Positions 7,520 to 37,107 of a DNA stretch of 40,831 nt are shown here, piece by piece. A model generated the notes under the pieces. It was not told where the DNA came from. It saw only the letters and a program-made list of their open reading frames with translations, and did not search any database. Source of the DNA: Candidatus Methanomethylophilaceae archaeon (GTDB lineage Archaea; Thermoplasmatota; Thermoplasmata; Methanomassiliicoccales; Methanomethylophilaceae); contig JBAYAO010000001.1 of assembly GCA_041669745.1 (NCBI GenBank), positions 1 to 40,831 on the forward strand, written 5' to 3'. Both the position numbers and the translations under genes were made by a program. Every line of letters starts with the position of its first letter. The stretch's first letter is position 1.

Positions 7520-7588
7520 TGATTTCATTTATCTCATCACAGTTCGGTGTCGTCTCGGGCAGAGACTTGGAAAACCGCGGAGGTGAAT

Positions 7589-8620
7589 ATGATGAGTGAA
7601 ATTACACCTAGGGAAAGGTTCTTCAAAGCAATGAAGTGTGAAAAGGTCGACAGACCGCCGGTATGCGGTATGACCACGACAGGCACGACTGAACTCATGG
7701 ATCATGTGGATGCCTACTGGCCTGAGGCCCATACGGATGCGAGGAAGATGGCCAAGATCGCATTGGGCGTATATGATTTTCTGGGACTGGAATCCGTCAG
7801 AGTGCCATACTGCCTTACCTACGAGGCAGAGGCACTGGGATGCACCGTGAATCTCGGTAAGAAGAATTCCACGCCGATGGTCAAGAACAGTCCGTTCAAA
7901 GCGGACCCGGATGCCAAATTGGAAATGATGGATGAGAAGGCGATGCTCAAAGTTCCGCGCAACAAGGTCATAGTCGATGCGGTCAATATCATAATAAAAG
8001 AGAGGAAGGCCGATCTCCCGACATTGCTGGGGGTGACAGGACCATTTACGATCGCAGGACATCTGGCAGGTACGGAGAATCTCGTATTGTGGACGATAAC
8101 GGAGCCGGACAGTGCAAAGAGATTCATATCGTTTGCTACGGACTATGAGAAGATGTGGCTGAAATACGTGGAGACACTGGGTGTAGACAGCATTCAGATG
8201 AGTGAACCATCGGCATCGTACGATATGATCTCCCCGGAGATGTTCGATGAATTCGCACTTCCGTCCCTGAAGAACGTCTATAAACCGCTCAGGAAAACCA
8301 TGAAGATCCTGCATATTTGCGGAAACATGCTGCCGATGCTTGATCACATGGTCGCGTCGGGAGCAACCGCGTTGAGCGTCGAGGAGAAGACGGACCCGTT
8401 CGTGGCAGTGAAGAAGGTCAACAAACGTGCGGCACTCGTCGGTAACGTCGGTGTCGTGAGGCCTCTCCTGCAGGGAACACCGAAGGATGTGGCGGATTCG
8501 ACGGTCCGCAGCATCGAAGCGGGATTCAACATAATCTCCGCAGGATGCGGTCTTTCGGCACTGATCAGCACCGAGAACATTCATGCAATGGTCGATACCG
8601 CGAAGAATTGGAAATATTGA
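7589..8620 (+). CDS. Methylcobamide:coenzyme M methyltransferase (MT2; MtaA/MtbA family, uroporphyrinogen-decarboxylase fold)
   Basis: The N-terminus is MMSEITPRERFFKAMKCEKVDRPPV. Zn ligand motifs LHICGN and SAGCG are present. GGAGGTGA lies upstream of ATG 7589. The protein is 343 aa. Confidence 0.88.
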   Translation: MMSEITPRERFFKAMKCEKVDRPPVCGMTTTGTTELMDHVDAYWPEAHTDARKMAKIALGVYDFLGLESVRVPYCLTYEAEALGCTVNLGKKNSTPMVKNSPFKADPDAKLEMMDEKAMLKVPRNKVIVDAVNIIIKERKADLPTLLGVTGPFTIAGHLAGTENLVLWTITEPDSAKRFISFATDYEKMWLKYVETLGVDSIQMSEPSASYDMISPEMFDEFALPSLKNVYKPLRKTMKILHICGNMLPMLDHMVASGATALSVEEKTDPFVAVKKVNKRAALVGNVGVVRPLLQGTPKDVADSTVRSIEAGFNIISAGCGLSALISTENIHAMVDTAKNWKY

Positions 8621-16234: not shown

Positions 16235-17218
16235 ATGATAACACTCGGTATCGAAGGTACGGCACATACTCTGGGGATAGGGATAGTGGATACCGAGAGG
16301 AAAGTGTTGGCAAATGTTCTTGATATGTACAAACCGGCCGAGGGGGGACTGCACCCCAGAGAAGCCGCGAATCATCACGCGGATGTCGTTGCGCCCCTCA
16401 TCGTAAAGGCAACTGAAGAGGCGGGTGTCTCGTTGAAGGAAGTGGACCTGGTATCATTTTCGAAAGGTCCGGGATTGGGACCGTGTCTCAGGGTCGCGGC
16501 GACCGCGGCACGGTCCTTGTCACTGAGGATGGGTGTGCCGATAATGGGTGTCAATCACTGTATCGCGCATATCGAGATAGGAAGGGCCACGACCGGATGC
16601 AGGGATCCAGCGCTACTGTACGCCTCCGGCGGGAATACCCAGATAATCGCGTTCGCGAACGGTAAATATCGTATTTTCGGTGAAACACTGGATGTTGGCA
16701 TAGGCAACATGTTCGATAAACTCGGAAGGGATCTCGGGCTCGGCTATTATGCTGGACCCGTGATCGAAAAGCTTGCCAAAGAGGGAGACAGGCTTCTTGA
16801 GCTGCCGTATTCGGTGAAAGGCATGGACATATCGTTCTCCGGTATAATGACGGCGGCATTGGCCCTAAAGAGAAAAGGGTACCGGCTGGAAGATATAGCT
16901 TTCTCGGTCCAGGAGACGTGTTTCGGTATGCTCGTCGAGGTCACGGAGAGGGCGATGGCGCATGTTGGCAAGGACGAAGTGCTTCTGGGCGGAGGTGTTG
17001 CACAGAACGCACGTCTCAGAGAGATGATACAGGAGATGGCGGAAGAACGCGGAGCACGGATGTTCGTCCCGGAGAGGAAGCTATGCGTGGACAACGGTGC
17101 GATGATCGCGTGGTTGGGGAATCTGATGTATCTGTCCGGAACGAGGATGACGATCGGCGATACGGCGATAGAACAGAGATTCAGGACCGATGAAGTGAAG
17201 GTCACTTGGCGGAGCTGA
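16235..17218 (+). CDS. kae1: tRNA N6-adenosine threonylcarbamoyltransferase Kae1
   Basis: The translation shows [35 protein letters not shown] and a C-terminal VDNGAMIA. No Bud32 domain is fused. Confidence 0.92.
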
Positions 17219-18551
17219 GCTGTTCTTTGAGTATGTTATCGAGATTGGCAAGGAACGTCTCCTCACAGCCAGCCTCGAAGGATGCGCCGCTAGCTATCTT
17301 ATGGCCGCCTCCCGTGCCGCCTACCGAATCAGCGGCGAGTCTCATGGCCGAGGAGAGATCGATGCCCTTGTCCAGCTGTTGCCACATTCCTCTGGATGAG
17401 ACCTTTGCTTTTCCATCTGAACTATTGATCCCGATGGTGGGTTTGTCAGGGTCGCCTATGAACTGCATCGCGATACCGCAGAGTATGCCGGTGAATCCCG
17501 ATGAGGTGCTGTCGAAATGCTGGAGATGTTCCATCTGCGTAAGGCCTTTGTTGTCAAGGTCTGTTATCGATGTAACGATCTTGTTCTTTGATTCGTTGTT
17601 CAATTCGACCGCTCTCACCAGGTCGTTATCGCTTCCCAGGCAAACCGATACCCCTATACCGCCGACACCGGAGCGCCCGCAAGCATTCAATATATCTGCA
17701 AAGGATTCGGCATCCATGCCCCAATCCTTCAGGAAGTATCTGGTTCTGGCAACCTCTTTCATGGTTTGAAGTGTCACGCCCTGTCTGGTCAATTTTATCG
17801 CGATCAGCGTGGACAATCTTCTCTTTTCGTCATCGGTAAGGTCCGTAAAAGATTCATCCAGAGAGACACCAGCATCCTTCAGGATCTGTGAAACGCCCTC
17901 CTGATTTCCGGTGACGCCCCTTATGTAGGGGTCCGTCGTAAGATACAGGGCCTTGGACATAGGTCCAGGGGGGACCAACGAACCCTCGGTAACTTTGACC
18001 AACCCTCTTCTGACGCCCTCATCCAGAAGATATGTGTTCAGACCGCTCAGTCCGTTGATGTGCTGTCTGTCGCCTGCTATACCCGCGAACGCGATCTGGA
18101 CAAGGTCCCAGTTTTCTTCGTTCATGAAAAGGGAGAAGAGAAAGGCCATGGTAGCACCGCATCCAGAGGTCATACCGTCAATGCCGACCAGATGCGGATT
18201 GGCATAGCAGATTGTTTCCGAATCATCGGGTGTGCTGTGATGGTCCAGCACGATAATCTTCTTGTCCATCTTCTCTAGCTGTCTGATGTATGAGGCACCT
18301 AGGTCCGTCATAAGGATGCAGTCGGCTCCGCATTCCTTTACGATTTCGAAATACTCGTCATTCATGGTGGTGAAGAGCGTAACTGCGTATTCCTTATCGG
18401 CTCTGGACAAGGTCTTTGCAATGATACCGGCGGCAGAGATCCCATCTGCGTCGTGGTGTGAGAAAACCTGAATAAAACCATGACTGCGAACGATCTCCGC
18501 CGCAGATGATAAACGATTAAAGAGTTTTGAAGGTAGGACGTTTTCGTCCAT
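17202..18551 (-). CDS. RecJ-like DHH/DHHA1 phosphoesterase (archaeal RecJ/GAN/Cdc45 family)
   Basis: DHH motifs are [18 protein letters not shown] and [13 protein letters not shown]. The 3' end overlaps the kae1 3' end by 17 nt. Confidence 0.85.
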
Positions 18552-18559
18552 GGAACACC

Positions 18560-19015
18560 TTACTTAAGCATGAGCTCCACAGTGTTGAGTGAATATTTCC
18601 AATCCTTGGGCAGAACGCCGTTATCCTTGTAGTAGCGTTCCAGTCTTCTGATCTTCGCTTCGATCATCTGGAGTCCTCTCCGGTTGGCAACGTCTCCACG
18701 GTTGTTCTTTATGTGAACGTTGAGCGTGATGGCGCGTCTCATCAGATTGGATAGATCCTCGGGAAGTGCGGGCGATACGCCTTTTGCTTCCATAATCTTT
18801 GTCACTGTGCTTCCGGTAGCGAGCTTAACGTCCGGAACTCCGTACTGGTCTCTTAGAACAAGTCCGATCTTGGCTGAGTTGTTGCCGTCCTTGGCCATTT
18901 TGACTATTATGTCCTCTATCTCGGTGGCTGAGATGGGAACCCATGCAGGGTTCTCGGTGACCATGGGGCGCTTCGAACAGGATTTGCCCTTTCTTCTTGT
19001 ATGCATTCTTGCCAT
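18560..19015 (-). CDS. rps15: 30S ribosomal protein uS15 (S15P/S13e)
   Basis: The translation reads MARMHTRRKGKSCSKRP...LVLRDQYGVPDVK...RRLERY. The protein is 151 aa from the internal Met. A TATA-like TTTAAATA lies upstream. Confidence 0.92.
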   Translation of the reverse strand: MARMHTRRKGKSCSKRPMVTENPAWVPISATEIEDIIVKMAKDGNNSAKIGLVLRDQYGVPDVKLATGSTVTKIMEAKGVSPALPEDLSNLMRRAITLNVHIKNNRGDVANRRGLQMIEAKIRRLERYYKDNGVLPKDWKYSLNTVELMLK

Positions 19016-19144
19016 GATGTAATTCCTCTGAATCATTCAGGCGGCGAGGCTGGTTCTACCCTATCTAATACTAATATTTAAAGCAAATCACACACGGCTG
19101 CAAATGACCGATTGTAAATCCTCGCCTCATAACGCAACGATGAT

Positions 19145-20140
19145 TCACTGGCGGATACAGCATCTGGCCCATTCGATGACGTTTTCGTATTCATCGGTAT
19201 CAAAGGCCAGATTATCGGGCAGGGTCTCAAACAACTCGGACTCCATCTCTCCCTTCGAGATCTTTTTTCCCAGCAGGCACACACAGACATCGCAGTATCC
19301 TATGTTCTTCTTGTCGATCAGTGCGGCCTCGTATCCGGATTCCTCAAGGCATTCTCTCACTGCAGCCTGCTCGGTGGTCTCATCGTTCTCCACCTTGCCG
19401 CCGGGCATCTCCCAGCCCTTTCTTTTGAGATTATGCACCATCAGGAACCTGTCGTCCTTCATCACTATGCAGTACACTGTTCTGGGCCTTTCCGCGACGA
19501 TAATGGCATGGGCGCCCTCATACGGTTCCAGGCTTCTCATGTCGAGTATCCTGCATCCGCGATTCAGAAGGCGTTTCCTAGCTTCCTCGAAAACGGTCTT
19601 TGGCTCTGCAGTGACATCTTCGGAACGTGCTTTGATGCACACCATCCCGTATCTGGCATTGAAGCGCTCCATGTTGTTTGCCAATATGTCGGCCTGATTC
19701 TTCTGTGCGACATCGGAGTAAACGATATCCACTTTATCGATCAGAAAACCATATTCTTCCGGATCCGTGGCATCGCCGAGGATAGGATTCATATTGTCCC
19801 TTCTTTCGGCTGTCTTGACAAGGTCCCTGAAGGATCTGGGTGAAAATTCGACACAGTATACCTTTCCGTTGCGCACGATGTCCGAGACATGGGAAGAGGT
19901 GGTTCCACTGGCAGCTCCGAGATAAAGGACGTGTGACGATCGTGTAAAAGGGAAGGCGGTCCCGCCGCACGTGATGTATGCCGAAAGTTTGCTTCTGTCA
20001 GGGGACCATTCACGGTATTCTGTTCCAGAGATGGTCAAAAGGCGTTCACCGTACACCCTCATTCCAGGATTTCGCGATACCGTATACAGTCTTCCCTTTT
20101 CGGAGAACACTGTTCCATCTGTGCATTTCAAAGGTTCCAT
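19145..20140 (-). CDS. flpA: Fibrillarin (box C/D rRNA/tRNA 2'-O-methyltransferase) fused to a C-terminal Nudix hydrolase domain
   Basis: Residues 1-218 are fibrillarin: VYGERL, EYREWSPDRSKLSA and VLYLGAASGTTSSHVSDIV. Residues 221-331 are Nudix, with the box GKVENDETTEQAAVRECLEESGY at nt 19331-19399. It is one uninterrupted ORF. Confidence 0.85.
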   Translation of the reverse strand: MEPLKCTDGTVFSEKGRLYTVSRNPGMRVYGERLLTISGTEYREWSPDRSKLSAYITCGGTAFPFTRSSHVLYLGAASGTTSSHVSDIVRNGKVYCVEFSPRSFRDLVKTAERRDNMNPILGDATDPEEYGFLIDKVDIVYSDVAQKNQADILANNMERFNARYGMVCIKARSEDVTAEPKTVFEEARKRLLNRGCRILDMRSLEPYEGAHAIIVAERPRTVYCIVMKDDRFLMVHNLKRKGWEMPGGKVENDETTEQAAVRECLEESGYEAALIDKKNIGYCDVCVCLLGKKISKGEMESELFETLPDNLAFDTDEYENVIEWARCCIRQ

Positions 20141-20229
20141 CAGGGTCGCTGTATATATCGTAGTTGAAACGAATATAAAATGGAAGTTATCAGAATAGTA
20201 AATTATATCGGTAGATCATCCTCATCACG

Positions 20230-21846
20230 ATGATACAAACACTCAGGGCAATTGCAGAAGATGTATCGAAGGCGATCAGGACGATACCGAAATGTGTCGA
20301 TATCGGGGAGGAGATCTGCATCGGAGCGGACGGTACACCGACCTCTAAAATCGACAAGATCGCCGAGAATACCGTCCTGAGTTACATTCAGTTACACGAG
20401 ATCCCTTTGAATATATTGAGCGAAGAGATAGGTTTCGTCGATAACGGTGCAGAAGACACGCTTGTTCTTGATCCCATAGACGGAACGACCAATTCGGTCA
20501 TCGGGGTGCCGATGTTCACGATCTCGATGGCCGTAGGAAAAGGTTCTATGAACGGGATGCACACAGCATATATCCGAAATCTGATCACAGGCGACGAGTA
20601 TACGGCGGAAAAGGGAAACGGCGCGTATCTCAACGGTGAAAGAATACACAGTAAGAGCATATCGGATCCGAAGAGATTGATGATGATGATATACCTCGGC
20701 AACGGAGCCGATCCGCAGGCATTCGCGGTAGCAAAACGTGTCAAATCATCGAGAGCCTACGGATGCGCATCGTTAGAGATGACATTGGTCGCTACCGGCA
20801 AAGCCGACGGATTCCTTATGCAGTCTGAGAACTACGCAAGGGCGATCCGTATCGTGGATATTGCGGCCAGCAGTCTTATACTCAGGGAGGCCGGGGGTGA
20901 GGTTTACGCATTGGACGGTTCTGTATTGGATATGCCGTTCGACCTCGAGCACAGGTCAAATTTCCTTGCCGTGGGGGACAACAGGGTATTCGATTACATC
21001 ATGGGCGGAGGAGGGACACTTCCGGAAGGCATCGAAAGACCGAGATATGGGATATATGTCAATATGAGCATCCCTTCGGTAAAGGAAATAGCCGCCAGGG
21101 TGATGAAGGCACTGGAAGGCGAGAGTTATGTTCTGGATTCGGAGATCGCCGATGCTATGGGACTGAAGGGATGTCCGCTTGACATGATGGATGTCGACAT
21201 ACTCATAACCGTGGGCGGTGACGGTACGATATTGCGTGCCATGCAGAGCACCGATGCCAGGATAATAGGGGTGAACGCAGGCGGAATAGGATTCCTCACA
21301 GAGATAGATGCCGATGATATTGAAAAGGGCGTAAAGAGGTTGCAAAATGGGGACTATACGGTACAGAGAAGGGCGAAGCTCAGGGTGACCTACAGGGGGG
21401 AGGTGCTCGGGGACGCGGTCAACGAGGCGGTCATCCATACGGATTCAGTGGCGAAGATCAGACGTTTCAAGGTCTACGTGAACGATTCACTGGCGACAGA
21501 CATCCGTGCGGACGGGATACTGCTTTCGACACCCACGGGTTCTACATGTTACGCCATGAGCCTGGGTGCACCCATAATAGACCATCGTGTCAATGCTTGG
21601 GTGATGGTCCCTATGGCGGCATTCAAATTCTCATCAAGACCCATGATCATCCCGACATCTGCCAAGGTTACGGTGGAGATGGTTATGGAAAAGGGATGTC
21701 TTCTGGTCATCGACGGACAGAAGGAGTTCAGTCTTCCTGGGGGTTCCAAGATAGAGCTCACGAGATCGTCAAAATATGCGACATTCATAATGTTCGACAC
21801 CGATTTCTATTCTCGCATAAGGGAAAAGCTGGTGAACGCTTTATGA
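20230..21846 (+). CDS. Bifunctional inositol-monophosphatase-family NADP phosphatase / NAD kinase (MJ0917-type fusion)
   Basis: The N-terminal half has LDPIDGTTN and EE...D IMPase motifs. The C-terminal half has the NAD kinase motifs TVGGDGTILRA, NAGGIGFLTE and STPTGSTCY. Confidence 0.9.
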   Translation: MIQTLRAIAEDVSKAIRTIPKCVDIGEEICIGADGTPTSKIDKIAENTVLSYIQLHEIPLNILSEEIGFVDNGAEDTLVLDPIDGTTNSVIGVPMFTISMAVGKGSMNGMHTAYIRNLITGDEYTAEKGNGAYLNGERIHSKSISDPKRLMMMIYLGNGADPQAFAVAKRVKSSRAYGCASLEMTLVATGKADGFLMQSENYARAIRIVDIAASSLILREAGGEVYALDGSVLDMPFDLEHRSNFLAVGDNRVFDYIMGGGGTLPEGIERPRYGIYVNMSIPSVKEIAARVMKALEGESYVLDSEIADAMGLKGCPLDMMDVDILITVGGDGTILRAMQSTDARIIGVNAGGIGFLTEIDADDIEKGVKRLQNGDYTVQRRAKLRVTYRGEVLGDAVNEAVIHTDSVAKIRRFKVYVNDSLATDIRADGILLSTPTGSTCYAMSLGAPIIDHRVNAWVMVPMAAFKFSSRPMIIPTSAKVTVEMVMEKGCLLVIDGQKEFSLPGGSKIELTRSSKYATFIMFDTDFYSRIREKLVNAL

Positions 21847-24029: not shown

Positions 24030-24116
24030 GCAGGGGTTACCGAGCCTGGCCAAAGGTGCTAGATTCAGGGTCTAGTCGTTAGTCGTTCGTGGGTTCAAAT
24101 CCCATCCCCTGCACCA
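24030..24116 (+). tRNA. tRNA-Leu (anticodon CAG), long variable arm, CCA encoded
   Basis: The acceptor is GCAGGGG/CCCCTGC. The anticodon stem is CTAGA/TCTAG with loop TTCAGGG. The T-loop is GGGTTCAAATCCC and the 3' end is ACCA. Confidence 0.92.
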
Positions 24117-24184
24117 ATGCGTTTGTTTTCTCGTTTTCCGTCGGGTATCGCCCCGGAGAGGTGTGACGGTGTCTTGAACGATCG

Positions 24185-25576
24185 TCAATCGTGATCTTCG
24201 TCCTTCATGACGGAGTCCTTGTGGATCATTATGGAGTGCAAGACTGCCAGGCTTAGGAGTCCCATGCCGATGGATCCTATGATTTCTCCGTACGCAAGAC
24301 CCCACCACAGAGCTCCGATATATCCGAACGTCGAAGCATATGCGAATATCCCGAGGATCAGGAGATTCCTGAGCAGGGAGGAGGTCATGGCGAGCATTCC
24401 TTTTCCCAATGACTGAAGCAATGAGGAACTTATGAAGATCCATGACATGAATACCAGATATACACAGCATATGCGTAGCAGGTCGACCATATCCGGCTGC
24501 AGTCTTTGCATGTTTCCCGAATAGGCGAACATCATGGTGGTCTGATCGGCGAAGAGGAACACTGCCACGGAGATGACGGTCATCACCGCTATCGTGATTT
24601 TGAGGGAATAGTAATATCCGGCCCCTATCCTGTCGAATCTCTTCATCCCGTATGCTGCTGCGCATACGGGAACGATCGCCGCAGCTATGGCCTGAGCCGG
24701 GATCAACAGCATGTAGTTAAGTTTCCACACTGAACTATATACGGCCATGGCATCACTTCCCCCGACATTCATGATATAGGCGTTCATGAATATGTTCATT
24801 ATCGCCATGATCGACAGTTCGAGAGACTGTGGAAATCCTACGACCATTATATCCTTTTGAAGGGGTCTGCTGAATTTGAGATGTTTCAGGTTCAGGTCTA
24901 TATACAGGTCCTTTTTCACCAGATACCAATAGAATGCGATGATCAATGATATGCTAGTTGCCAGAATGGTCGCCCAAGCCGCACCGGCGGTCCCCAGACC
25001 TGCCGTATATATCAATAGCGGGTCGAATATGATGTTTAGCACAGCGCATGTGACCAGAACGATCATTGACCTTTTTGCAGCACCCTCGGATCTGAGAAGG
25101 CCTGTGATGACACCGAGCATCAATGTCACTATCGAGCAGGCGGTCAACGGATAACCGAAGTCGAGTCCATACTGCAACGTGGTATCTGTACCTGAATAGA
25201 GCAACAACGGTCTGACAAGCAATACAAATATCGGGGTTACGATGATTGCGACCAGGAATATCAGCAGTATGGTCTGTGCTGCGGTCCTGTCTGCGAGCTC
25301 CTTCTCCCCTCTTCCGAGTCTTCTTGCGATCGCGGATGATGCGCCGATACCTATTCCTGTACCCAGTCCTGTGAGAGTGGAGTATAGTGGGTATATCAGA
25401 CCGACGGCGCACATGGCATCGGCACCGAGACCAACGACCCAAACGACATCGACGAGATTATTGAGATTCTGAACGAACAAAGATATGGCAAGCGGAACCG
25501 CCATCACGATGATGGCTCTCTTAGGATTGCCCAAGAGTGTTTCGACGTCATGCGTCATCCTTTTCGTTTCGTTCAC
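24185..25576 (-). CDS. MATE family efflux transporter
   Basis: The ORF has 463 codons and about 12 TM segments. The N-terminal LLGNPKRAIIVMAVPLAISLFVQNLNNLVD is typical of NorM/MATE proteins. Confidence 0.85.
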   Translation of the reverse strand: MNETKRMTHDVETLLGNPKRAIIVMAVPLAISLFVQNLNNLVDVVWVVGLGADAMCAVGLIYPLYSTLTGLGTGIGIGASSAIARRLGRGEKELADRTAAQTILLIFLVAIIVTPIFVLLVRPLLLYSGTDTTLQYGLDFGYPLTACSIVTLMLGVITGLLRSEGAAKRSMIVLVTCAVLNIIFDPLLIYTAGLGTAGAAWATILATSISLIIAFYWYLVKKDLYIDLNLKHLKFSRPLQKDIMVVGFPQSLELSIMAIMNIFMNAYIMNVGGSDAMAVYSSVWKLNYMLLIPAQAIAAAIVPVCAAAYGMKRFDRIGAGYYYSLKITIAVMTVISVAVFLFADQTTMMFAYSGNMQRLQPDMVDLLRICCVYLVFMSWIFISSSLLQSLGKGMLAMTSSLLRNLLILGIFAYASTFGYIGALWWGLAYGEIIGSIGMGLLSLAVLHSIMIHKDSVMKDEDHD

Positions 25577-31001: not shown

Positions 31002-32196
31002 TTATTCGTATTACGTCGCCGTCCAAGAGTTCATAATCGGCTCCGACGGTACGTTTGGTCTTGACATTCACGGCACGGACGAACTTATCACCGAGGTCTG
31101 TGTGTACCTTGTATGCGAGGTCTCTCGCGGTCGATCCCCTGGGTATGAGAAAAGCATCCGGAAGCACCCTCCCGAAGTGGTCGGTGAACTTGTTTTCGTC
31201 TTCAACAGGATAAACGGTTATGAGATCCAGTATTCCGTATGTTGCCTTTTCAAGACATGTCTGAACACCCGTCCCGTCGTATTTTTCCATATTCTTCGCC
31301 ATATACTCCAGTGCATGCTTCTGGTTATCGTTGAGGACTGCGTCCTTTCTGACATCGAACGTCGGTTCGCCGGGAACATATTCCACAATACCCGCATCGC
31401 AGGCTTTTTTGAGTGCAAGTTCGGTCTCTGCCATTGTGGCTATCGATACATCGCCGATACCCGTGACCAGATCGATGTTCCCGGAGGGGGCGATATCCGC
31501 TTTGTTCATCGCTATGATCATGGGTTTGCTGACATCTCTTATTTCGTCGGCGAGTGAGAGCATAACATCATCATCCCATAGTGTGATGTCGTCAGGAGGA
31601 CATACGTTCTTCAATGCGGTCTTGATCTGCGTTTCGGTGATCTTCAATCCTGCAAGTCTGTCAGCGAGTATCGCCTCTGGTTTCGTGCCTTTCATCTTTG
31701 CGGTCCTGGCCATTTTGTTGAATCCGTTCTTGAGAATCTCTCTGATCCAGAGTGAGATCTCCTTTTTCAAGAATTCCACGTCCTCACGCGGATCATGTTC
31801 TCCAGGTTTTCCGGGGGTCCCCTCTATATCCGTGGAACCGCTGACATCGATAACATTGATCAGAGCATCCGCCTGTCGCAGATCATCCAAAAATCGATTG
31901 CCGAGGCCTTTTCCCTGCCACGCATCCGGTACCAGGCCGGCGACGTCGAGCAGTTCCACCGGTATCATTCTGATCCCGTCAACGCAGCCTGAATTATGCG
32001 GTGTACATTTTACACCTAATTCCTTGCATGGACATTTGGACCTTACATAACCTACGCCCTTGTTGGCCTCTATGGTTGTGAAAGGATAGTTGGCTATCTC
32101 TACGGGTGCCATTGTCGCTGCGCTGAAGAATGTGGATTTCCCTACGTTCGGTTTTCCGACGATACCTATCTGCATAAGATCGCGTGGTAATGGCAT
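30988..32196 (-). CDS. Obg/YchF-related P-loop GTPase with C-terminal TGS-like domain
   Basis: G1 is GIVGKPNVGKST, G3 is DVAGLV and G4 is NKAD. The C-terminal GDVIRI is TGS-like. The gene overlaps polB by 14 nt. Confidence 0.85.
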   Translation of the reverse strand: MPLPRDLMQIGIVGKPNVGKSTFFSAATMAPVEIANYPFTTIEANKGVGYVRSKCPCKELGVKCTPHNSGCVDGIRMIPVELLDVAGLVPDAWQGKGLGNRFLDDLRQADALINVIDVSGSTDIEGTPGKPGEHDPREDVEFLKKEISLWIREILKNGFNKMARTAKMKGTKPEAILADRLAGLKITETQIKTALKNVCPPDDITLWDDDVMLSLADEIRDVSKPMIIAMNKADIAPSGNIDLVTGIGDVSIATMAETELALKKACDAGIVEYVPGEPTFDVRKDAVLNDNQKHALEYMAKNMEKYDGTGVQTCLEKATYGILDLITVYPVEDENKFTDHFGRVLPDAFLIPRGSTARDLAYKVHTDLGDKFVRAVNVKTKRTVGADYELLDGDVIRIIANR

Positions 32197-32996
32197 TAAT
32201 CAGTTATATGTTTGCCATGATCGAACACGGCATTGGCCAATTGCCCTATTTCGGCAGGCGTCAATGTTTCGATGCGTTCGTTCAGGAATGGAATATCAGA
32301 ATCTGTTTCGATCATGCCCGCAGCCTTCAGCGAAGTTCCGATTTTCTTTCTTCGGTGATTGAACGTGGTTTCGGTGATCCTGAAGAAGGTCCTTTCGTCC
32401 GTGACATCGAACGGAGCAGGTCGGGGAACGATCTCAACCAATGCGGAATCTACTTTGGGACGAGGTTTGAAACGTGATGCCGGAACCTGTTCGAGTATTC
32501 TGCAATCGGCCTTGTAGAACATGTTCACCGTGAGGCGGGAATAGTCGATGCTTCCCACATCGGATACCATCCTTTGGGCAAATTCCTTCTGTACCATGAC
32601 GACCGCTTTTTTGAAAGGATACTCTAGAAGCTTGAAGATAACAGGCGTGGATATGCTGTAAGGCAGATTGCTGACAAATTTGTCGAACGGAGGGAAATCG
32701 ACCTCCAGGGCATCTCCGTTTATGAGATTTACTCTGGATCCGTATTGTTCCTCAATATATCTGGCAAGTATGTCATCCAATTCGATACATGTCACATTAT
32801 CGGAAGACTCCACAAGGAATCTCGTGAGGATCCCCAATCCTGGACCCACCTCGAGGACCCTGTCATGTGGTCCTATGTCGGCGAATTCAACGTGCCTCCG
32901 TGCAACACGTTCATCGATGAGAAAGTTCTGACCTTTGCTTTTCTTAGGGACGATGCCGGTTTCGGTTATCAGTCTTCCCGTTTCATTTCGATTCAT
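32196..32996 (-). CDS. rsmA: 16S rRNA (adenine1518/1519-N6)-dimethyltransferase (KsgA/Dim1)
   Basis: The translation shows KSKGQNFLIDERV, the SAM motif VLEVGPGLGILT and NLPY. There is a 1-nt overlap with the GTPase start (TAATG). Confidence 0.92.
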   Translation of the reverse strand: MNRNETGRLITETGIVPKKSKGQNFLIDERVARRHVEFADIGPHDRVLEVGPGLGILTRFLVESSDNVTCIELDDILARYIEEQYGSRVNLINGDALEVDFPPFDKFVSNLPYSISTPVIFKLLEYPFKKAVVMVQKEFAQRMVSDVGSIDYSRLTVNMFYKADCRILEQVPASRFKPRPKVDSALVEIVPRPAPFDVTDERTFFRITETTFNHRRKKIGTSLKAAGMIETDSDIPFLNERIETLTPAEIGQLANAVFDHGKHITD

Positions 32997-33541
32997 CTGG
33001 AAATGAAGAGATAACGTCTCCTCTCTGGATCCGATATCTCCAGTATTATACGGGAAACGATCAATTTTTCAGGCCCCTTCAGGAGAGGTACCCTTGTCGA
33101 TATATCATCGAAACTGGTAAATCTGCTCTTCTCGCGTTCCTTCAGGATCTCCTGCATGGTTTTCTTTCCAAGGCCGGGCAGTTCTTCCAAGAGATGTTTC
33201 TTGATCGAGATCGGACCAGCTTCATTGTAGAATTTCACGAATCTCGCCTGATTGCCGGTCACGATCTGGTCGATGACGAACTCCAACTCTCCGCTGGCAG
33301 TGTTGGTCAGTTCCTCGTAACCTATGCGTCTTTTGACATGATCGATCTGTGTACGGAGTGTCGGATCCTTTCCGATGTACACCCTGTCATCTATCATTAT
33401 CTGCGCATTCGGTTTCGGGACAAGCTCGAAAAGTTTGAACTCCTCTTCACCTATCGCATAGCAGACGGGGTCCCTTTTTGAAAAATTGTTGCTGGGCAGG
33501 CCCTGCGGCAAGTAATCCAAGACAAATGCGTATTCTTCCAA
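32993..33541 (-). CDS. DUF655-family putative RNA/nucleotide-binding protein
   Basis: The translation reads MEEYAFVLDYLPQG...FYNEAGPISIKKHLLEELPGLGKKT (OB plus HhH-like). It sits in the conserved position between ksgA and rpo4. Confidence 0.75.
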   Translation of the reverse strand: MEEYAFVLDYLPQGLPSNNFSKRDPVCYAIGEEEFKLFELVPKPNAQIMIDDRVYIGKDPTLRTQIDHVKRRIGYEELTNTASGELEFVIDQIVTGNQARFVKFYNEAGPISIKKHLLEELPGLGKKTMQEILKEREKSRFTSFDDISTRVPLLKGPEKLIVSRIILEISDPERRRYLFISR

Positions 33542-33563
33542 GTAAATCCCTCTGTTCGAAGGC

Positions 33564-33884
33564 TCAAAGGTACTTATCGACTATTTCAATTATCTTATTG
33601 ATGTTGTCGGCTTCAAGTGTGATTCTCTCTTTTGCAAAAATCGCACGTACGTCCTCTGGATATTTTGGAAGAAGGTCGGCAATCTTGCAGGAGGTTGACT
33701 CGGTCGTGAAATCGAGCGCATCGGCCTCGGCAATGAGCGCATTGGTCTGTTCCAATGAGAGTTTTGCGATGGTCTGGGCGTGGTTCATGGCCGATCTCTG
33801 TATGGTGCTAAGCTCTCCCCTCTTTTCATTTTCTGCTGTGAGGAGGTCTCTGACCTCAGCCAAACTGACGTATTGCTCAGACAT
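33564..33884 (-). CDS. rpo4: DNA-directed RNA polymerase subunit Rpo4 (RpoF)
   Basis: The protein is 106 aa and begins MSEQYVSLAEVRDLL. The rpl21e-rpo4-DUF655-ksgA gene order is conserved. Confidence 0.75.
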   Translation of the reverse strand: MSEQYVSLAEVRDLLTAENEKRGELSTIQRSAMNHAQTIAKLSLEQTNALIAEADALDFTTESTSCKIADLLPKYPEDVRAIFAKERITLEADNINKIIEIVDKYL

Positions 33885-33896
33885 TCATTCACTTCC

Positions 33897-34187
33897 TTAG
33901 ACGTTCTTCACGAGATGGTTGGGGCGTGCGATTACCGTTTTAGGTTTGTTGCCGTCCATGACGCTCACTATGAACGCTGCGCCTCTCTGACCTACTACGA
34001 CGCCGGTGTATCCGTGGAATCTCGAGTGCGGCATTCCCTTGTGTTCACTGGGGTCGATGACTATATTGACCTTTTCTCCATTCTCAAAGGTCTGGAAACC
34101 CTTGGTTATAGGTGAAAGACCGCGCGCCCTCGGCTTCTTCTGCAAAAGAAAACGGGTCTTGGTCCTTGTTCCTTTGGATGCTTTCAT
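33897..34187 (-). CDS. rpl21e: 50S ribosomal protein eL21 (L21e)
   Basis: The translation reads [12 protein letters not shown]...[13 protein letters not shown]. The protein is 96 aa from the internal Met. The ATG overlaps the pus10 stop (ATGA). Confidence 0.9.
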
Positions 34188-35410
34188 TTCATTCCCTCGT
34201 TGATCGCTATCACGTCCAGTTCCTCCACGAGACATCGGATTCCCAATGCCTCAGAGAAACTCGGGGTCGTTCTTCCATCATCGCCGGAAACGAATTCCTT
34301 CACATAAGTTCCAGACTCCGTTTCAAGGGTCAGATCGAACACGTCATCCCCTACGACCTCCGCCTCGACCCAAAAGATCTCCCTGTTCCTCACTAGGTCG
34401 GCACGACGGTGCTCGACTCTTTGTGGTGTCCTCTGGTCGATGCGGATGTTCTTGAACGCTAAGGCTACCTCATCTACTCCTTCTTTATTAACTTTACTCT
34501 CCGCGCGTACCCTGGCCTTGTAAGTCTTCGTAGGGGTGGCCAGTTTCGTCCTCTGCACCTCATCTCTCTGTACAAATCTCAGGTTATGGTATTGTGCCAG
34601 TTCTGATTGATTTGCCTTTGCTTCCAGGTAGTCGAGGTCTATGTCGCGTGTCCTAGGATCGCTGATTTCGAGAACGAAGGGCCTTCCTTCGCCCAGCATA
34701 AGCGCGTCTATGTCCTCCCTCCCCATTCCATGGAAGAAATGTTCCTTTCCACCGGACATTTCAAGGGCTATGTCACCAAGTATTTCTTGGACAGAGGTCT
34801 GGTACATCTTTCCCGTGTCATGACATCTGGAACAGCCCTTTCCATGGCATACCCTGCAGGGCCAGATGGTCTGGGGTATCTCGCGGCTTAGCTTGTTGTA
34901 CCTTCCGTATATGAATATCGGGGCAATGTCCAATTCAACATCCGCGAAACGTGTGTCTATACAGGCCACGATCTGCGGATTCTTGAATTCGACGGGCCGA
35001 TTGATCATCGGAAGTGCGAGTTTTCCGATTTCACGATTGAGTTCGGTCTTAATGGATTCTGCATTCTCAAGTTCGAACCTTTCTCGAATGTCCTTTTCCC
35101 TCTTCGTTATCTCAGGGTCGACACGGGACCCTACGAGGAAATTTTCAGATTCCACATCATTCACCTTGTCTGCGACCGTCTCCGCAAAACGGCCCAACAG
35201 ATCGAAGATGCCTTCACATAACGGACAAGCATCTGGTGCCGGTATGTCATATCCTTCCTCTTCCAGAGCTTTGCGTATGAAGGTTCCGCGGACATCATTG
35301 GTCATTCCCGTTCCGAGCTTTCCGAACATTCTGCCGAGGCAGCGATCGCACAATCCATATTCCGCCACGGCCTTGGCCTTGTCCATATCGTTAACGATCC
35401 AGTCTTCCAT
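34184..35410 (-). CDS. pus10: tRNA pseudouridine(54/55) synthase Pus10
   Basis: The N-terminal Zn motifs are CDRCLGR...CPLCEG. A second [12 protein letters not shown] motif is present. The ORF has 408 codons. Confidence 0.85.
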
Positions 35411-35419
35411 GATGGTACC

Positions 35420-36762: not shown

Positions 36763-36777
36763 GAGGGGTCACTCCTT

Positions 36778-37107
36778 TCAGAAAATGTCCAAATTTTTAG
36801 GGACCTTGTTCCTTTTACTGAGATTCACGGCCTGTGTCTTGGTATAACGGAACCTGACGTCGCATTTGTCAGGCTGGAAATCCCATATCGAAATGATGAG
36901 GAGGTCCCCTTCCCTGATCCACATCCTCTTCTTTATCTTGCCGGGGATCCTCCCCATTCTGGATACCCCGTCCTCACACATGACCTTGATTTTGGATGCT
37001 CCGAGCAGCTGATCGGCTATGCCGAATATCTCGCCTTCCTTGATATTCGGCAAACGTACACGCGTCACGTCCTCATCAGGACTCTCCATGGGTTCATTGC
37101 CGCTCAT
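36778..37107 (-). CDS. eif1a: Translation initiation factor aIF-1A
   Basis: The translation reads RVRLPNIKEGEIFGIADQLLGASKIKVMCEDGVSRMGRIPGKIKKRMWIREGDLLI (S1/OB fold). Confidence 0.92.
   Translation of the reverse strand: MSGNEPMESPDEDVTRVRLPNIKEGEIFGIADQLLGASKIKVMCEDGVSRMGRIPGKIKKRMWIREGDLLIISIWDFQPDKCDVRFRYTKTQAVNLSKRNKVPKNLDIF

What the first reader, a model, noticed from the sequence alone, without database searches (positions are those of the whole stretch)
19145..20140. Fibrillarin fused in-frame to a Nudix hydrolase domain, with no adjacent nop5
Seen: one uninterrupted 331-codon ORF.
- Residues 1-218 are a canonical archaeal fibrillarin (VYGERL, EYREWSPDRSKLSA, SAM loop VLYLGAASGTTSSHVSDIV).
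- Residues 221-331 are a compact Nudix domain. Its box GKVENDETTEQAAVRECLEESGY (nt 19331-19399) fits Gx5Ex7REUxEExGU almost perfectly.
- No nop5 gene lies next to it. Upstream is a divergent NAD kinase gene, and downstream is rps15.

Established: fibrillarin is the catalytic subunit of box C/D sRNPs and in most archaea is encoded directly after nop5. Nudix enzymes hydrolyse nucleoside-diphosphate-X compounds, including NAD, ADP-ribose and non-canonical RNA 5' caps.

Inference: this polypeptide would tether a pyrophosphohydrolase to the 2'-O-methylation machinery. Possible roles are 5'-end processing or deNADding of guide or target RNA, or local nucleotide clearance. I do not recall this architecture being described.
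Basis: partly seen in the sequence, partly recalled or inferred. Interest (0 to 1): 0.72.

Follow-up and report, generated by a model that had tools for sequence, protein, structure and literature searches.

The report
Fibrillarin fused to its Nudix partner
A gut-type methanogenic archaeon encodes its rRNA-methylating enzyme fibrillarin fused to a small Nudix hydrolase; the two are adjacent, coupled genes throughout the order Methanomassiliicoccales, which points to an undescribed, still untested Nudix partner of the ribosome-biogenesis machinery.

Summary
Window 19145-20140 (-) is one uninterrupted 331-codon ORF. Residues 1-218 are a canonical archaeal fibrillarin and residues 219-331 are a complete, compact Nudix domain with an intact Nudix box.

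It is not an assembly artefact. About 100 protein clusters from independent assemblies (49-90% identity) have the same architecture and a fixed, linker-less junction.

The fusion is secondary. In 48 of 48 informative Methanomassiliicoccales species genomes, this Nudix gene lies directly downstream of fibrillarin. It is usually a separate 115-125-aa gene that abuts or overlaps fibrillarin. One Methanomethylophilaceae clade, which includes the window, merged the two genes. A second merger may have occurred in Methanomassiliicoccaceae.

"No adjacent nop5" holds for the whole order. Nop5 and L7Ae are encoded elsewhere in two genomes of the order.

In Aciduliprofundum-like Thermoplasmatota the same Nudix family is coupled to NMD3, another ribosome-biogenesis gene. 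Its closest characterised relative is Bacillus YtkD/BsRppH, an RNA 5'-pyrophosphohydrolase, but it fails that family's membership cut-off.

Best reading (inferred, about 0.4): an RNA 5'-end pyrophosphohydrolase or decapping module working with box C/D RNPs or pre-ribosomes. I found no description in the searched literature. It is a new variant of a known kind and of moderate to high interest.

The parts
19145..20140 (-). Complete fused gene: fibrillarin-Nudix, 331 codons plus stop
   Evidence: ORF list and sequence. Two Pfam domains. About 100 homologous fused clusters.
19487..20140 (-). Fibrillarin (box C/D RNP 2'-O-methyltransferase) half, residues 1-218
   Evidence: PF01269 E 7.9e-74. NF003276 256.9 bits, above the cut-off. 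Foldseek match to 1g8a, 2nnw_B and 1nt2_A with target TM 0.86-0.91.
19898..19930 (-). SAM-binding loop VLYLGAASGTT (residues 71-81)
   Evidence: L72, Y73, L74, G75, A76, A77, G79, T80 and T81 are invariant in 64 fused homologues.
19475..19495 (-). Fusion junction ...AERP|RTVY... (residues 216-222). No linker. It replaces the ATGA stop/start overlap of unfused relatives.
   Evidence: DNA comparison with BRNA1 and Methanogranum. The junction has a fixed length in all 63 fused homologues except P0101. AF2 places 3 residues between the last fibrillarin strand and the first Nudix strand.
19148..19486 (-). Compact Nudix hydrolase half, residues 219-331
   Evidence: PF00293 E 1.6e-13. AF2 domain model has pLDDT 94.4 and pTM 0.85. 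Foldseek finds 489 Nudix-type PDB matches at E<=1e-3. 44-53% identical to the separate Nudix proteins of unfused relatives.
19331..19399 (-). Nudix box G248-x5-E254-x7-R262 E263-x2-E266 E267-x-G269-Y270
   Evidence: Read directly from the sequence. G248, E254, R262, E263, E266, E267 and G269 are invariant in 64 fused homologues and across the wider family.
19169..19234 (-). Family-specific C-terminal motif LF..LP..LAF...EYE..I.W (residues 303-324)
   Evidence: F304, P308, F313, E317, Y318 and W324 are invariant in fused proteins. P (LP) is invariant and E nearly invariant across the fibrillarin-linked, NMD3-linked and other members. The motif aligns to the conserved L.E...SF of YtkD.
20141..20229 (.). 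Divergent intergenic region between fibrillarin-Nudix and IMPase-NAD kinase. It contains A/T-rich TATA-like stretches (TTTTATATT, ATATATAC) 15-45 nt upstream of the ATG.
   Evidence: Sequence reading only. Promoter function is inferred and was not tested.
18560..19036 (-). Ribosomal protein S15 (S13e) gene, the conserved downstream neighbour
   Evidence: PF08069 + PF00312. Same position in L001, L003, L056 and L060.
17202..18551 (-). GAN/RecJ-like DHH-CID-DHHA1 protein, the next conserved neighbour
   Evidence: PF01368, PF21763 and PF02272. Synteny.
20230..21846 (+). Divergent inositol monophosphatase-NAD kinase fusion gene, the conserved upstream neighbour in Methanomethylophilaceae
   Evidence: PF00459 + PF01513 + PF20143. 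Synteny.

Best explanation
SHOWN. The gene encodes a bifunctional polypeptide. One half is an intact archaeal fibrillarin, the catalytic subunit of box C/D sRNPs. It is joined without a linker to an intact, compact (~113 aa) Nudix pyrophosphohydrolase.

The polypeptide arose when the stop/start overlap (ATGA) between two adjacent, translationally coupled genes was lost. Those genes, fibrillarin followed by nudix, are neighbours throughout the order Methanomassiliicoccales. One clade of Methanomethylophilaceae, which includes this window's organism, inherited the merged gene and has kept both halves under purifying selection.

The same Nudix family is coupled in the same way to NMD3, a large-subunit biogenesis factor, in Aciduliprofundum-like Thermoplasmatota.

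INFERRED. The Nudix module works physically with fibrillarin, in or beside the Nop5-L7Ae-guide RNA particle or the pre-ribosome. It acts as an RNA 5'-end pyrophosphohydrolase or decapping enzyme. It would convert 5'-triphosphate, or nucleotide-metabolite caps such as NAD or ADPR, on primary transcripts into 5'-monophosphate. Candidate substrates are box C/D guide sRNAs or pre-rRNA leader fragments. The conversion would license 5'-end trimming or turnover.

The enzymatic steps, the substrate and the physical association in unfused species are all untested.
For: Reality of the fusion.
- The ORF is uninterrupted.
- About 100 clusters at 90% identity, from ENA, NCBI, JGI and Logan assemblies, carry PF01269+PF00293 at about 330 aa.
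- The junction has an identical length in all of them except P0101.

Origin from a gene pair.
- BRNA1 and Methanogranum have fibrillarin (219-221 aa) followed by a separate NUDIX gene (118-119 aa) that overlaps it by 4 nt, with the same flanking genes as the window.
- In 48 of 48 GTDB species loci with upstream DNA, fibrillarin lies immediately upstream on the same strand. Nine are fused.
- The fused forms are one clade in an NJ tree.
- P0101 looks like a second, independent fusion in Methanomassiliicoccaceae.

Both halves look functional.
- The Nudix-box residues G248, E254, R262, E263, E266, E267 and G269 and the fibrillarin SAM loop are invariant in 64 proteins at 49-90% identity.
- AF2 gives pLDDT 93.9 and pTM 0.80 for the whole chain, which suggests a defined mutual orientation.

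Link to ribosome biogenesis beyond fibrillarin.
- An NMD3-Nudix overlap pair occurs in Aciduliprofundum sp. MAR08-339 and three further diverged contigs.
- The Aciduliprofundum Nudix is 45% identical to the window's Nudix half.

RNA 5'-end activity.
- TIGR02705 (YtkD, 'RNA deprotection pyrophosphohydrolase') is the best NCBIfam model for the window protein and for 4 of 5 further family members.
- BdRppH and BsRppH are the 2nd and 3rd PDB sequence hits and lie in the Foldseek top 10.
- The first named bacterial relatives of the family profile are YtkD proteins.
- hhalign of the family against YtkD gives probability 99.6 and E 1.4e-23 over most of the domain. Single-sequence controls give YtkD 4e-18, MutT 1e-12 (box only) and E. 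coli RppH 3e-9.

Precedents.
- Eleven C/D box sRNAs were among the NAD-capped RNAs of S. acidocaldarius, and an archaeal Nudix (Saci_NudT5) decaps ADPR-RNA (PMC10663502).
- The eukaryotic nucleolar Nudix X29/Nudt16 decaps U8 box C/D snoRNA (PMC5900562, PMC2566886).
Against: - There is no biochemical or expression evidence.
- The similarity to YtkD is far below that family's equivalog cut-off (43.8 bits against 154.4). The archaeal proteins lack about 20 N-terminal and 30 C-terminal residues of YtkD.
- The structural ranking is flat: E is about 1e-7 for dozens of Nudix enzymes of many specificities, including CDP-Chase, MutT1, NUDT18 and Ap4A hydrolase.
- YtkD/BsRppH enzymes themselves hydrolyse free NTPs, so a nucleotide substrate is not excluded. 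Source annotations call relatives '8-oxo-dGTP diphosphatase'.
- The module is acidic (pI about 4.7), which gives no positive sign of RNA binding. Bacillus YtkD proteins are equally acidic, so this is uninformative.
- Two more distant family members sit next to unrelated genes: PolB/DUF1922 and an amidohydrolase.
- None of the four S. acidocaldarius Nudix proteins removed NAD caps in vitro (PMC10663502).
- Adjacent overlapping genes can fuse through a single small indel, so fusion alone is weak evidence of joint function.
Confidence: 0.42

Rival explanations
1. The Nudix module is a MutT/YtkD-like cleaner of free nucleotides. It would hydrolyse oxidised or modified NTPs: 8-oxo-GTP, or, speculatively, 2'-O-methyl or other modified nucleotides released by rRNA turnover. 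Its coupling to fibrillarin or NMD3 would then serve co-expression with rRNA synthesis and maturation, not action on RNA ends.
For: - The domain has the minimal MutT-like size and a GWE[FM]PGG..E..E..RE..EE.G box typical of NTP pyrophosphohydrolases.
- Source annotations of relatives read '8-oxo-dGTP diphosphatase' or 'nucleoside triphosphatase YtkD'.
- MutT, MutT1, MTH1 and NUDT18 are all in the Foldseek list at nearly the same E-value as the RppH enzymes.
- The module is acidic, with no obvious RNA-binding surplus of K/R.
Against: - Similarity to MutT is confined to the 34-column Nudix box, whereas similarity to YtkD extends over 57-95 columns.
- A free-nucleotide cleaner has no obvious need for 4-nt translational coupling to one specific RNP enzyme across a whole order, a linker-less fusion, or parallel coupling to NMD3.
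- The automatic '8-oxo-dGTP diphosphatase' names are generic Nudix labels, not tests.
Confidence: 0.25
2. There is no functional coupling. Fibrillarin and the Nudix gene are simply neighbours in a housekeeping gene string. Loss of the overlapping stop codon produced a tolerated, selectively neutral fusion of two independently acting enzymes.
For: - The surrounding genes are functionally mixed: rpS15, GAN/RecJ-like, Kae1, IMPase-NAD kinase.
- Fusion of ATGA-overlapping genes needs only a small indel.
- Some family members lie next to unrelated genes.
- In several Methanomassiliicoccaceae a ~175-aa ORF separates the two genes.
Against: - The fibrillarin-Nudix order holds in 48 of 48 species across two families, while the upstream context differs completely between them.
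- Most pairs abut or overlap.
- The fusion has been retained through divergence down to 56% identity within the main fused clade, with all catalytic residues kept.
- There is a probable second, independent fusion.
- The same Nudix family is coupled to a different ribosome-biogenesis gene, NMD3, in another order.
- AF2 gives a confident whole-chain pTM of 0.80 with no linker.
Confidence: 0.15
3. The Nudix half acts on NAD, NADH or ADP-ribose as free metabolites, which is one of the first reader's options. It would be linked metabolically to the divergent NAD kinase gene and not to RNA.
For: - A divergently transcribed IMPase-NAD kinase gene shares the intergenic region.
- Weak NCBIfam hits to bifunctional NMNAT/Nudix and NAD diphosphatase models (E 3e-4 to 0.04).
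Against: - Those hits are 7-9 orders of magnitude weaker than the YtkD hit and lie far below their cut-offs.
- The domain ends about 60 residues after the Nudix box. It contains no NudC-type zinc motif and no SQPWPFPxS signature (sequence reading; the signature is from my own knowledge).
- In Methanomassiliicoccaceae the NAD kinase is not the upstream neighbour of fibrillarin, yet the Nudix pairing persists.
- In Aciduliprofundum the partner gene is NMD3.
Confidence: 0.05
4. The fusion is an assembly or sequencing artefact: a frameshift or lost stop that joins two genes.
For: Close relatives have two separate genes overlapping by 4 nt, so one indel would mimic a fusion.
Against: - About 100 non-redundant fused clusters come from many independent assemblies and sources, with an identical junction length.
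- Nine GTDB species representatives are fused and form one clade.
- The window junction differs from the unfused state by an in-frame deletion of several codons, not by a 1-nt slip.
Confidence: 0.01

Closest known systems
Archaeal fibrillarin (aFib; PF01269 / NCBIfam NF003276; structures 1g8a, 1fbn, 2nnw, 1nt2, 3pla)
   Same: Residues 1-218 match over the full length of the profile, above the curated cut-offs. They are 41-50% identical to solved archaeal fibrillarins (target TM 0.86-0.91) and have a conserved SAM loop.
   Different: The protein carries a C-terminal Nudix domain that no solved fibrillarin has (best query-normalised TM 0.63). The gene is not next to nop5, a trait of the whole order.
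The unfused fibrillarin + NUDIX gene pair of other Methanomassiliicoccales (for example 'Thermoplasmatales archaeon BRNA1' CP002916, Ca. Methanogranum OY780938)
   Same: The proteins are orthologous (fibrillarin 65-69%, Nudix 44-53% identity). Gene order and flanks are the same: IMPase-NADK | fib, nudix, rpS15, GAN-like DHH, Kae1.
   Different: They are two polypeptides, translationally coupled by a 4-nt overlap. In the window the overlap and the first few Nudix codons are deleted in frame, which gives one chain.
Bacillus YtkD / BsRppH, 'RNA deprotection pyrophosphohydrolase' (TIGR02705; PDB 4jzu, 4jzv)
   Same: It is the best-scoring characterised family by HMM, PDB sequence search, fold search and profile-profile comparison. 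It shares the loop spacing ..R-G-W/Y-E-F/M-PGGKVE, the Nudix box and a C-terminal L.E/LP...SF/AF motif.
   Different: The score is about 44 bits against an equivalog cut-off of 154 bits. The archaeal domain is about 113 aa against about 158 aa and lacks the N- and C-terminal extensions. BsRppH is a bacterial, stand-alone enzyme. Its RNA specificity (G at position 2) cannot be inferred here.
X29 / NUDT16, the nucleolar Nudix that decaps U8 box C/D snoRNA in metazoa
   Same: This is a functional analogy only: a Nudix hydrolase acting on a box C/D guide RNA in the compartment where fibrillarin works (PMC5900562, PMC2566886).
   Different: There is no specific sequence relationship; NUDT16 is absent from the PDB sequence hits at E<=0.01. 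It is not fused to or encoded with fibrillarin. It removes m7G/TMG caps, which I do not know to occur in archaea (own knowledge).
Saci_NudT5 of Sulfolobus acidocaldarius (ADPR-RNA decapping Nudix)
   Same: It is an archaeal Nudix shown to process a non-canonical RNA 5' cap. C/D box sRNAs are among the NAD-capped RNAs in the same organism (PMC10663502).
   Different: It is an ADP-ribose pyrophosphatase-type Nudix with no reported link to fibrillarin. The window's domain gives only marginal hits to ADP-ribose and NAD hydrolase models.

Membership tests
[quoted passage not shown] | Full-length profile match above the curated cut-off | tested here: met
   PF01269 scores 248 bits against 27 and covers profile positions 18-224 of 227. 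NF003276 scores 256.9 bits against 113.
[quoted passage not shown] | Class I methyltransferase fold with the fibrillarin N-terminal beta domain and a conserved SAM-binding loop | tested here: met
   Foldseek matches 1g8a, 1fbn, 2nnw_B and 1nt2_A at E 1e-20 to 4e-26 with target TM 0.85-0.91. The LYLGAA.GTT loop is invariant in 64 homologues.
[quoted passage not shown] | Assembly with Nop5, L7Ae and a box C/D guide RNA | not testable with these tools
   Nop5 and L7Ae homologues are reported in two genomes of the order (M. intestinalis Mx1, ISO4-H5) in the S4 table of PMC7608942. None lies in the window.
Nudix hydrolase superfamily (PF00293) | Nudix box GX5EX7REUXEEXGU | tested here: met
   G248-KVEND-E254-TTEQAAV-R262 E263-C-L-E266 E267-S-G269-Y270. 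U is Cys at the first position and Tyr at the last, which are mild deviations. All G, E and R positions are invariant in 64 fused proteins and in the wider family.
Nudix hydrolase superfamily (PF00293) | Profile match above the gathering score, and an alpha/beta/alpha Nudix fold | tested here: met
   PF00293 scores 51.2 bits against 21.1. The AF2 domain model has pLDDT 94.4. Foldseek gives 489 PDB matches at E<=1e-3, and the top 50 are all Nudix enzymes.
Nudix hydrolase superfamily (PF00293) | Mg2+/Mn2+-dependent pyrophosphohydrolase activity | not testable with these tools
   This needs a biochemical assay. Only conservation of the catalytic residues is shown.
YtkD / BsRppH RNA deprotection pyrophosphohydrolase (TIGR02705) | Equivalog-level profile score (cut-off 154.4 bits) over the full ~156-residue model | tested here: not met
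   The window protein scores 43.8 bits and matches model positions 22-76 only. Other family members score 30-57 bits. hhalign covers template columns 22-130 of 165, so both termini are missing.
YtkD / BsRppH RNA deprotection pyrophosphohydrolase (TIGR02705) | Closer to this family than to other characterised Nudix families | tested here: met
   It is the best NCBIfam hit by 3-5 orders of magnitude for most members. Profile against single sequence gives YtkD 4e-18, MutT 1e-12 and EcRppH 3e-9. This is a statement of resemblance, not of membership.
YtkD / BsRppH RNA deprotection pyrophosphohydrolase (TIGR02705) | Conversion of 5'-ppp RNA to 5'-p RNA; RNA-contact residues | not testable with these tools
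The structural paper that lists the contact residues (PMC3670357) is not held.
MutT 8-oxo-(d)GTP diphosphatase (TIGR00586 / NF008044) | Equivalog-level profile score | tested here: not met
   TIGR00586 scores 28 bits against 97.9 and NF008044 scores 30.7 against 148. The hhalign overlap is limited to the 34-column Nudix box.
NudC-type NAD(H) / NAD-RNA diphosphatase (NF001299) | Profile score above the cut-off; zinc-binding motif and the SQPWPFPxS signature downstream of the Nudix box | tested here: not met
   NF001299 scores 13.3 bits against 158. No such signature occurs in residues 271-331 (sequence; the signature is recalled from my own knowledge).

The most novel reading that the evidence does not exclude
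This compact Nudix is a previously unrecognised, dedicated protein component of ribosome-biogenesis particles in Thermoplasmatota. In Methanomassiliicoccales it would bind fibrillarin in box C/D RNPs, covalently in the fused clade. In Aciduliprofundum-like lineages it would bind NMD3-containing pre-50S particles.

It would be an archaeal functional counterpart of bacterial RppH. To my knowledge (not searched here) no such enzyme has been identified in archaea. It would remove 5'-triphosphates or NAD/ADPR caps from guide sRNAs or pre-rRNA fragments, so that 5'-3' exonucleases can trim or clear them.
Probability: 0.25. Interest if true: 0.8.

Novelty: new variant of a known kind. Interest (0 to 1): 0.6.

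Why it matters
Fibrillarin is one of the most conserved and best-studied RNA-modifying enzymes. Its known archaeal partners are Nop5, L7Ae and the guide RNA.

An order-wide, translationally coupled and repeatedly fused Nudix partner would add a catalytic activity to that machinery, or at least to its expression unit.

How archaeal primary transcripts lose their 5'-triphosphate or metabolite caps is, to my knowledge, poorly understood. [quoted passage not shown] A Nudix that resembles BsRppH and is genetically tied to fibrillarin and to NMD3 is therefore a concrete candidate that can be cloned.

The hosts are Methanomassiliicoccales, the methyl-reducing methanogens of human and animal guts. Cultured relatives exist in which the unfused pair could be studied.

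If the coupling turns out to be neutral, the finding is still a clean documented case of gene fusion by loss of an overlapping stop/start.

Tried and rejected
1. Assembly artefact. Rejected, because about 100 independent fused clusters share an identical junction.

2. nop5 hidden nearby. I scanned 38 further window ORFs and the conserved ORFs upstream of fibrillarin in Methanomassiliicoccaceae loci. The 306-aa candidate is DUF7065/DUF7064, not Nop5.

3. Metagenome scan for more NMD3- or fibrillarin-linked Nudix genes. The first attempt failed because the alignment was too divergent. The second used patterns that were too generic: 80 loci came back and none had NMD3 or fibrillarin upstream. This was a dead end.

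4. Structural classification of the Nudix half. Foldseek confirms the fold, but the ranking is flat and does not discriminate substrate classes.

5. Residue-level comparison with BsRppH RNA contacts. The structural paper PMC3670357 is not held.

6. Charge or pI as an indicator of RNA binding. Uninformative: the module is acidic, but so are genuine YtkD proteins.

7. Geometry of the Nudix domain relative to the Nop5 and SAM sites. Model coordinates are not exposed by the tools. From class I methyltransferase topology (own knowledge), the C-terminus after the last, antiparallel strand points away from the SAM face. That suggests the Nudix domain does not block the active site, but this is untested inference.

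8. NMD3-Nudix fusion proteins. None were found among 69 NMD3 relatives.

9. Rfam scan of the window for C/D sRNAs. Only tRNAs were found.

10. NudC, ADPRase and MutT membership. All failed their cut-offs.
Full report
OBSERVATION

Window 19145-20140 on the minus strand is one uninterrupted ATG-initiated ORF of 331 codons. The Nudix box GKVENDETTEQAAVRECLEESGY is residues 248-270, which is nt 19331-19399.

Profile searches confirm both halves.
- Pfam Fibrillarin covers residues 14-217 (E 7.9e-74) and Pfam NUDIX covers residues 218-276 (E 1.6e-13). Both are above their gathering scores.
- The NCBIfam fibrillarin equivalog NF003276 passes its cut-off.
- The Pfam Nudix match covers only the first half of that profile. 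AlphaFold2, run on an alignment of 64 homologues, models the whole chain with mean pLDDT 93.9 and pTM 0.80.
- In that model, residues 221-330 form a complete minimal Nudix fold. Only three residues separate the last fibrillarin strand from the first Nudix strand.
- The fibrillarin half superposes on solved archaeal fibrillarins (1g8a, 2nnw_B, 1nt2_A; target TM 0.86-0.91). No PDB chain covers both halves.

The flanks are as described: a divergent inositol-monophosphatase/NAD-kinase fusion gene upstream, then rpS15, a GAN/RecJ-like DHH-CID-DHHA1 gene and Kae1 downstream. None of the 38 further ORFs I scanned in the window is Nop5 or L7Ae.

THE FUSION IS REAL

A search of 5.8 billion proteins returned about 100 clusters (at 90% identity) of roughly 330 aa that carry both PF01269 and PF00293. 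They are 49-90% identical to the window protein. They come from ENA, NCBI, JGI and Logan assemblies, and those with names are labelled Methanomethylophilaceae or 'Thermoplasmatales archaeon'.

In an alignment of 64 of them:
- the Nudix-box residues G248, E254, R262, E263, E266, E267 and G269 are invariant;
- the fibrillarin SAM loop is invariant;
- a set of C-terminal Nudix residues (F304, P308, F313, E317, Y318, W324) is invariant.

The junction (...IVVE[RK]-[PQ]RT[AV]Y...) has the same length in all of them except P0101. An assembly frameshift is therefore excluded for this clade.

WHERE THE FUSION CAME FROM

The closest unfused fibrillarins (about 219 aa) belong to the same family of archaea. 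In 'Thermoplasmatales archaeon BRNA1' and in a Ca. Methanogranum chromosome, fibrillarin is followed by a separate 118-119-aa NUDIX gene that overlaps it by 4 nt (...CCATGACC...). The flanking genes are the same as in the window. These separate Nudix proteins are 44-53% identical to the window's C-terminal half. The window reads ...GAA AGG CCC AGA ACA GTG TAC... across the junction, so the ATGA overlap and the first few Nudix codons were lost in frame.

A scan of one genome per GTDB species with the Nudix alignment found 49 loci, all Methanomassiliicoccales. Seven of these records carry bacterial organism names, which are evidently mislabelled bins.
- In 48 of 48 loci with upstream sequence, fibrillarin lies immediately upstream on the same strand.
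- Nine loci are fused.
- Most of the rest abut or overlap.
- Six loci have a gap of about 570 nt. It holds a ~175-aa ORF with no Pfam match.

In an NJ tree of the concatenated halves, the fused forms (window plus L005-L013) are a single clade nested among unfused Methanomethylophilaceae. This tree has no bootstrap support values.

One outlier, P0101 (367 aa), retains a Met at its junction. Its fibrillarin half is 66% identical to unfused Methanomassiliicoccus loci but only about 50% identical to the fused clade. It is probably an independent second fusion, but it rests on a single contig.

NOP5

nop5 is not adjacent to fibrillarin in any fused or unfused locus. That includes the Methanomassiliicoccaceae-type loci, whose upstream context is entirely different: a PPDK-like gene, a DUF7065/7064 gene and small ORFs.

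The supplementary HMM tables of a fibrillarin-evolution study list Nop5/NOP56 and L7Ae hits in two genomes of the order (PMC7608942):
- Ca. M. intestinalis Mx1: Nop5 AGN26948.1, L7Ae AGN27193.1, fibrillarin AGN25674.1.
- ISO4-H5: Nop5 AMH95320.1, L7Ae AMH95474.1, fibrillarin AMH93842.1.

The partner accession numbers are more than 1,200 away from those of fibrillarin. The separation of fibrillarin from nop5 is therefore an order-wide trait, the partners exist, and there is no reason to think the methyltransferase works outside a canonical C/D RNP.

WHAT KIND OF NUDIX

An exhaustive HMMER search of 1.84 billion representatives shows a narrow family. Only 31 clusters (at 50% identity) reach E<=1e-10, and nearly all are stand-alone proteins of 110-130 aa.

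Distant members (30-45% identity) share three features:
- the FLMV.N..RGWE[FLM]PGG stretch;
- the Nudix box;
- a C-terminal F..LP..L[AS]F..EEY motif.

Their genomic contexts are informative.
- Two more Methanomassiliicoccales show the fib-nudix-S15-DHH string.
- Three contigs have the Nudix gene directly after, and overlapping, an NMD3-family gene. Their NMD3 proteins are only 40-56% identical to each other.
- The NMD3 relatives with names are Thermoplasmatota.
- In the complete genome of Aciduliprofundum sp. MAR08-339, the operon L44e-S27e-aIF2alpha-Nop10-PAC2-NMD3 ends with a 110-aa NUDIX gene that overlaps NMD3 by 4 nt. That protein is 45% identical to the window's Nudix half (E 8e-24).
- Two other members sit after PolB/DUF1922 or an amidohydrolase.
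- A more distant Thermoplasmata NMD3 is followed by Trm5 instead of a Nudix gene.

The family is thus recurrently, though not universally, coupled to ribosome-biogenesis genes, and the partner differs between orders.

CLOSEST CHARACTERISED RELATIVES

Four independent approaches point to the Bacillus YtkD/BsRppH family of RNA 5'-pyrophosphohydrolases.
- TIGR02705 is the best NCBIfam model for the window protein and for four of five further family members, and a close second in the fifth.
- BdRppH (3ees) and BsRppH (4jzu) are the second and third PDB sequence hits and are in the Foldseek top ten.
- The first named bacterial hits of the family profile are YtkD proteins.
- hhalign of the family against a small YtkD alignment gives probability 99.6% and E 1.4e-23 over columns 5-100 of 129.
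- Like-for-like single-sequence controls give YtkD 4e-18 (57 columns), MutT 1e-12 (34 columns, Nudix box only) and E. coli RppH 3e-9.

This is resemblance, not membership. The score is about 44 bits against an equivalog cut-off of 154 bits, and the archaeal proteins lack both terminal extensions of YtkD. MutT, NudC and ADP-ribose hydrolase models all fail by wide margins. The Foldseek E-values are flat across many specificities. The module is acidic (pI about 4.7), but so are Bacillus YtkD proteins, so charge says nothing.

MECHANISM

Shown:
- a single polypeptide with an intact fibrillarin and an intact Nudix catalytic core;
- an origin by merger of an order-wide, tightly coupled gene pair;
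- retention under purifying selection.

Inferred: the Nudix module acts together with fibrillarin, most probably on RNA 5' ends. It would convert 5'-triphosphate or metabolite caps on C/D guide sRNAs or pre-rRNA fragments to 5'-monophosphate, so that they can be trimmed or degraded.

Support for this reading comes from three sources.
- The YtkD/BsRppH resemblance described above.
- The parallel coupling to NMD3.
- Two literature precedents. Eleven C/D box sRNAs are among the NAD-capped RNAs of S. acidocaldarius, where a Nudix (Saci_NudT5) decaps ADPR-RNA (PMC10663502). In metazoa the nucleolar Nudix X29/Nudt16 decaps the box C/D snoRNA U8 (PMC5900562, PMC2566886).

I give this reading about 0.4. 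The rivals are:
- a free-nucleotide cleaner co-expressed with rRNA maturation (about 0.25);
- a neutral fusion of unrelated neighbours (about 0.15);
- free NAD or ADP-ribose metabolism (about 0.05);
- an artefact (about 0.01).

NOVELTY AND VERDICT

The fused proteins are present in public databases, named only as fibrillarin-like methyltransferases. I found no paper that describes the architecture, the conserved gene pair or the NMD3 parallel. The searchable library excludes most subscription journals.

This is a new variant of a known kind: a canonical enzyme with a lineage-specific catalytic partner, not a new class of system.

Its interpretation is partly supported.
- The tethering idea is reasonable, but the unit that matters is the conserved fibrillarin-Nudix pair.
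- The missing nop5 neighbour is a red herring.
- The NAD and ADP-ribose options are the least supported.

Interest is 0.6. A specialist in archaeal RNA processing would find it unexpected, and it gives a concrete candidate for archaeal RNA 5'-end deprotection that can be cloned. The function remains entirely inferential.

Noticed in passing
L141:3001-4325 (Aciduliprofundum sp. MAR08-339, CP003168.1); also L057:3003-4327, L058:3016-4351, L059:2979-4339: The same compact Nudix family is encoded immediately after, and overlapping, an NMD3-family gene (large-subunit biogenesis factor). In Aciduliprofundum the pair closes an L44e-S27e-aIF2alpha-Nop10-PAC2-NMD3 operon. This is a second, independent ribosome-biogenesis linkage. 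No NMD3-Nudix fusion was seen among 69 NMD3 relatives.
   Followed up: partly
L038:5462-5989 (also L036, L037, L040, L043, L052): In a subset of Methanomassiliicoccaceae-type genomes, a ~175-aa ORF with no Pfam match is inserted between fibrillarin and the Nudix gene, on the same strand. Its identity is unknown.
   Followed up: partly
P0101 (367 aa; 76-kb contig) and P0111 (523 aa): P0101 is a fibrillarin-Nudix fusion whose fibrillarin half groups with unfused Methanomassiliicoccus and which keeps a Met at the junction. It is probably an independent second fusion, or an error on a single contig. P0111 joins about 280 unrelated N-terminal residues to a truncated fibrillarin plus Nudix and looks like a chimeric gene call or assembly.
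   Followed up: partly
L009, L010, L016, L018, L027, L028, L030 (record titles): Seven GTDB representative records carry bacterial names: Bacteroides salyersiae, Anaerovoracaceae, Bifidobacteriaceae, Dialister hominis, Faecalibacterium sp., Acutalibacteraceae and Eggerthellaceae. Each nevertheless holds a typical Methanomassiliicoccales fibrillarin-Nudix locus. These are mislabelled or contaminated gut MAG bins.
   Followed up: no
window 20230-21846 (+) compared with L056:145-1721 and L060:1455-3031: Inositol monophosphatase and NAD kinase are one 538-aa fused gene in the window and other Methanomethylophilaceae. They are two adjacent genes in L056 and L060. This is a second lineage-specific fusion state at the same locus. 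A bifunctional NADP phosphatase/NAD kinase is known from Methanocaldococcus (own knowledge).
   Followed up: no
window 32196-37107 (-): A separate ribosome-biogenesis and translation cluster: KsgA/Dim1 (RrnaAD), DUF655, L21e, Pus10, a KH-domain Dim2/Krr1-like protein, Rio1 kinase and aIF1A.
   Followed up: no
window 19283-19300 (-), residues 281-286 GYCDVC: A conserved Cys-containing motif (C283 and C286 are nearly invariant in fused proteins and present in BRNA1 and Methanogranum). It is specific to Methanomethylophilaceae Nudix modules and absent from Methanomassiliicoccaceae and NMD3-linked members. Its role is unknown.
   Followed up: no
window 24030-24116 (+): ARAGORN calls a tRNA-Leu(CAG) here that the Rfam gathering-threshold scan did not report. 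It overlaps the 3' end of the mechanically listed ORF 24072-24665 (-).
   Followed up: no
window 7529-8584 (-) and 38877-39977 (-): Two long ORFs (351 and 366 aa) have no Pfam match at E<=1e-3. I did not examine them further. They are not Nop5.
   Followed up: no
Genome-contig scan: The window's own sequence matches the scan patterns, yet no locus more than 64% identical was returned. The source species is therefore either not among the GTDB r232 representatives or is masked in the collection. Its nearest relatives are P0001 (90%) and P0002 (85%), from ENA and Logan metagenome assemblies.
   Followed up: no
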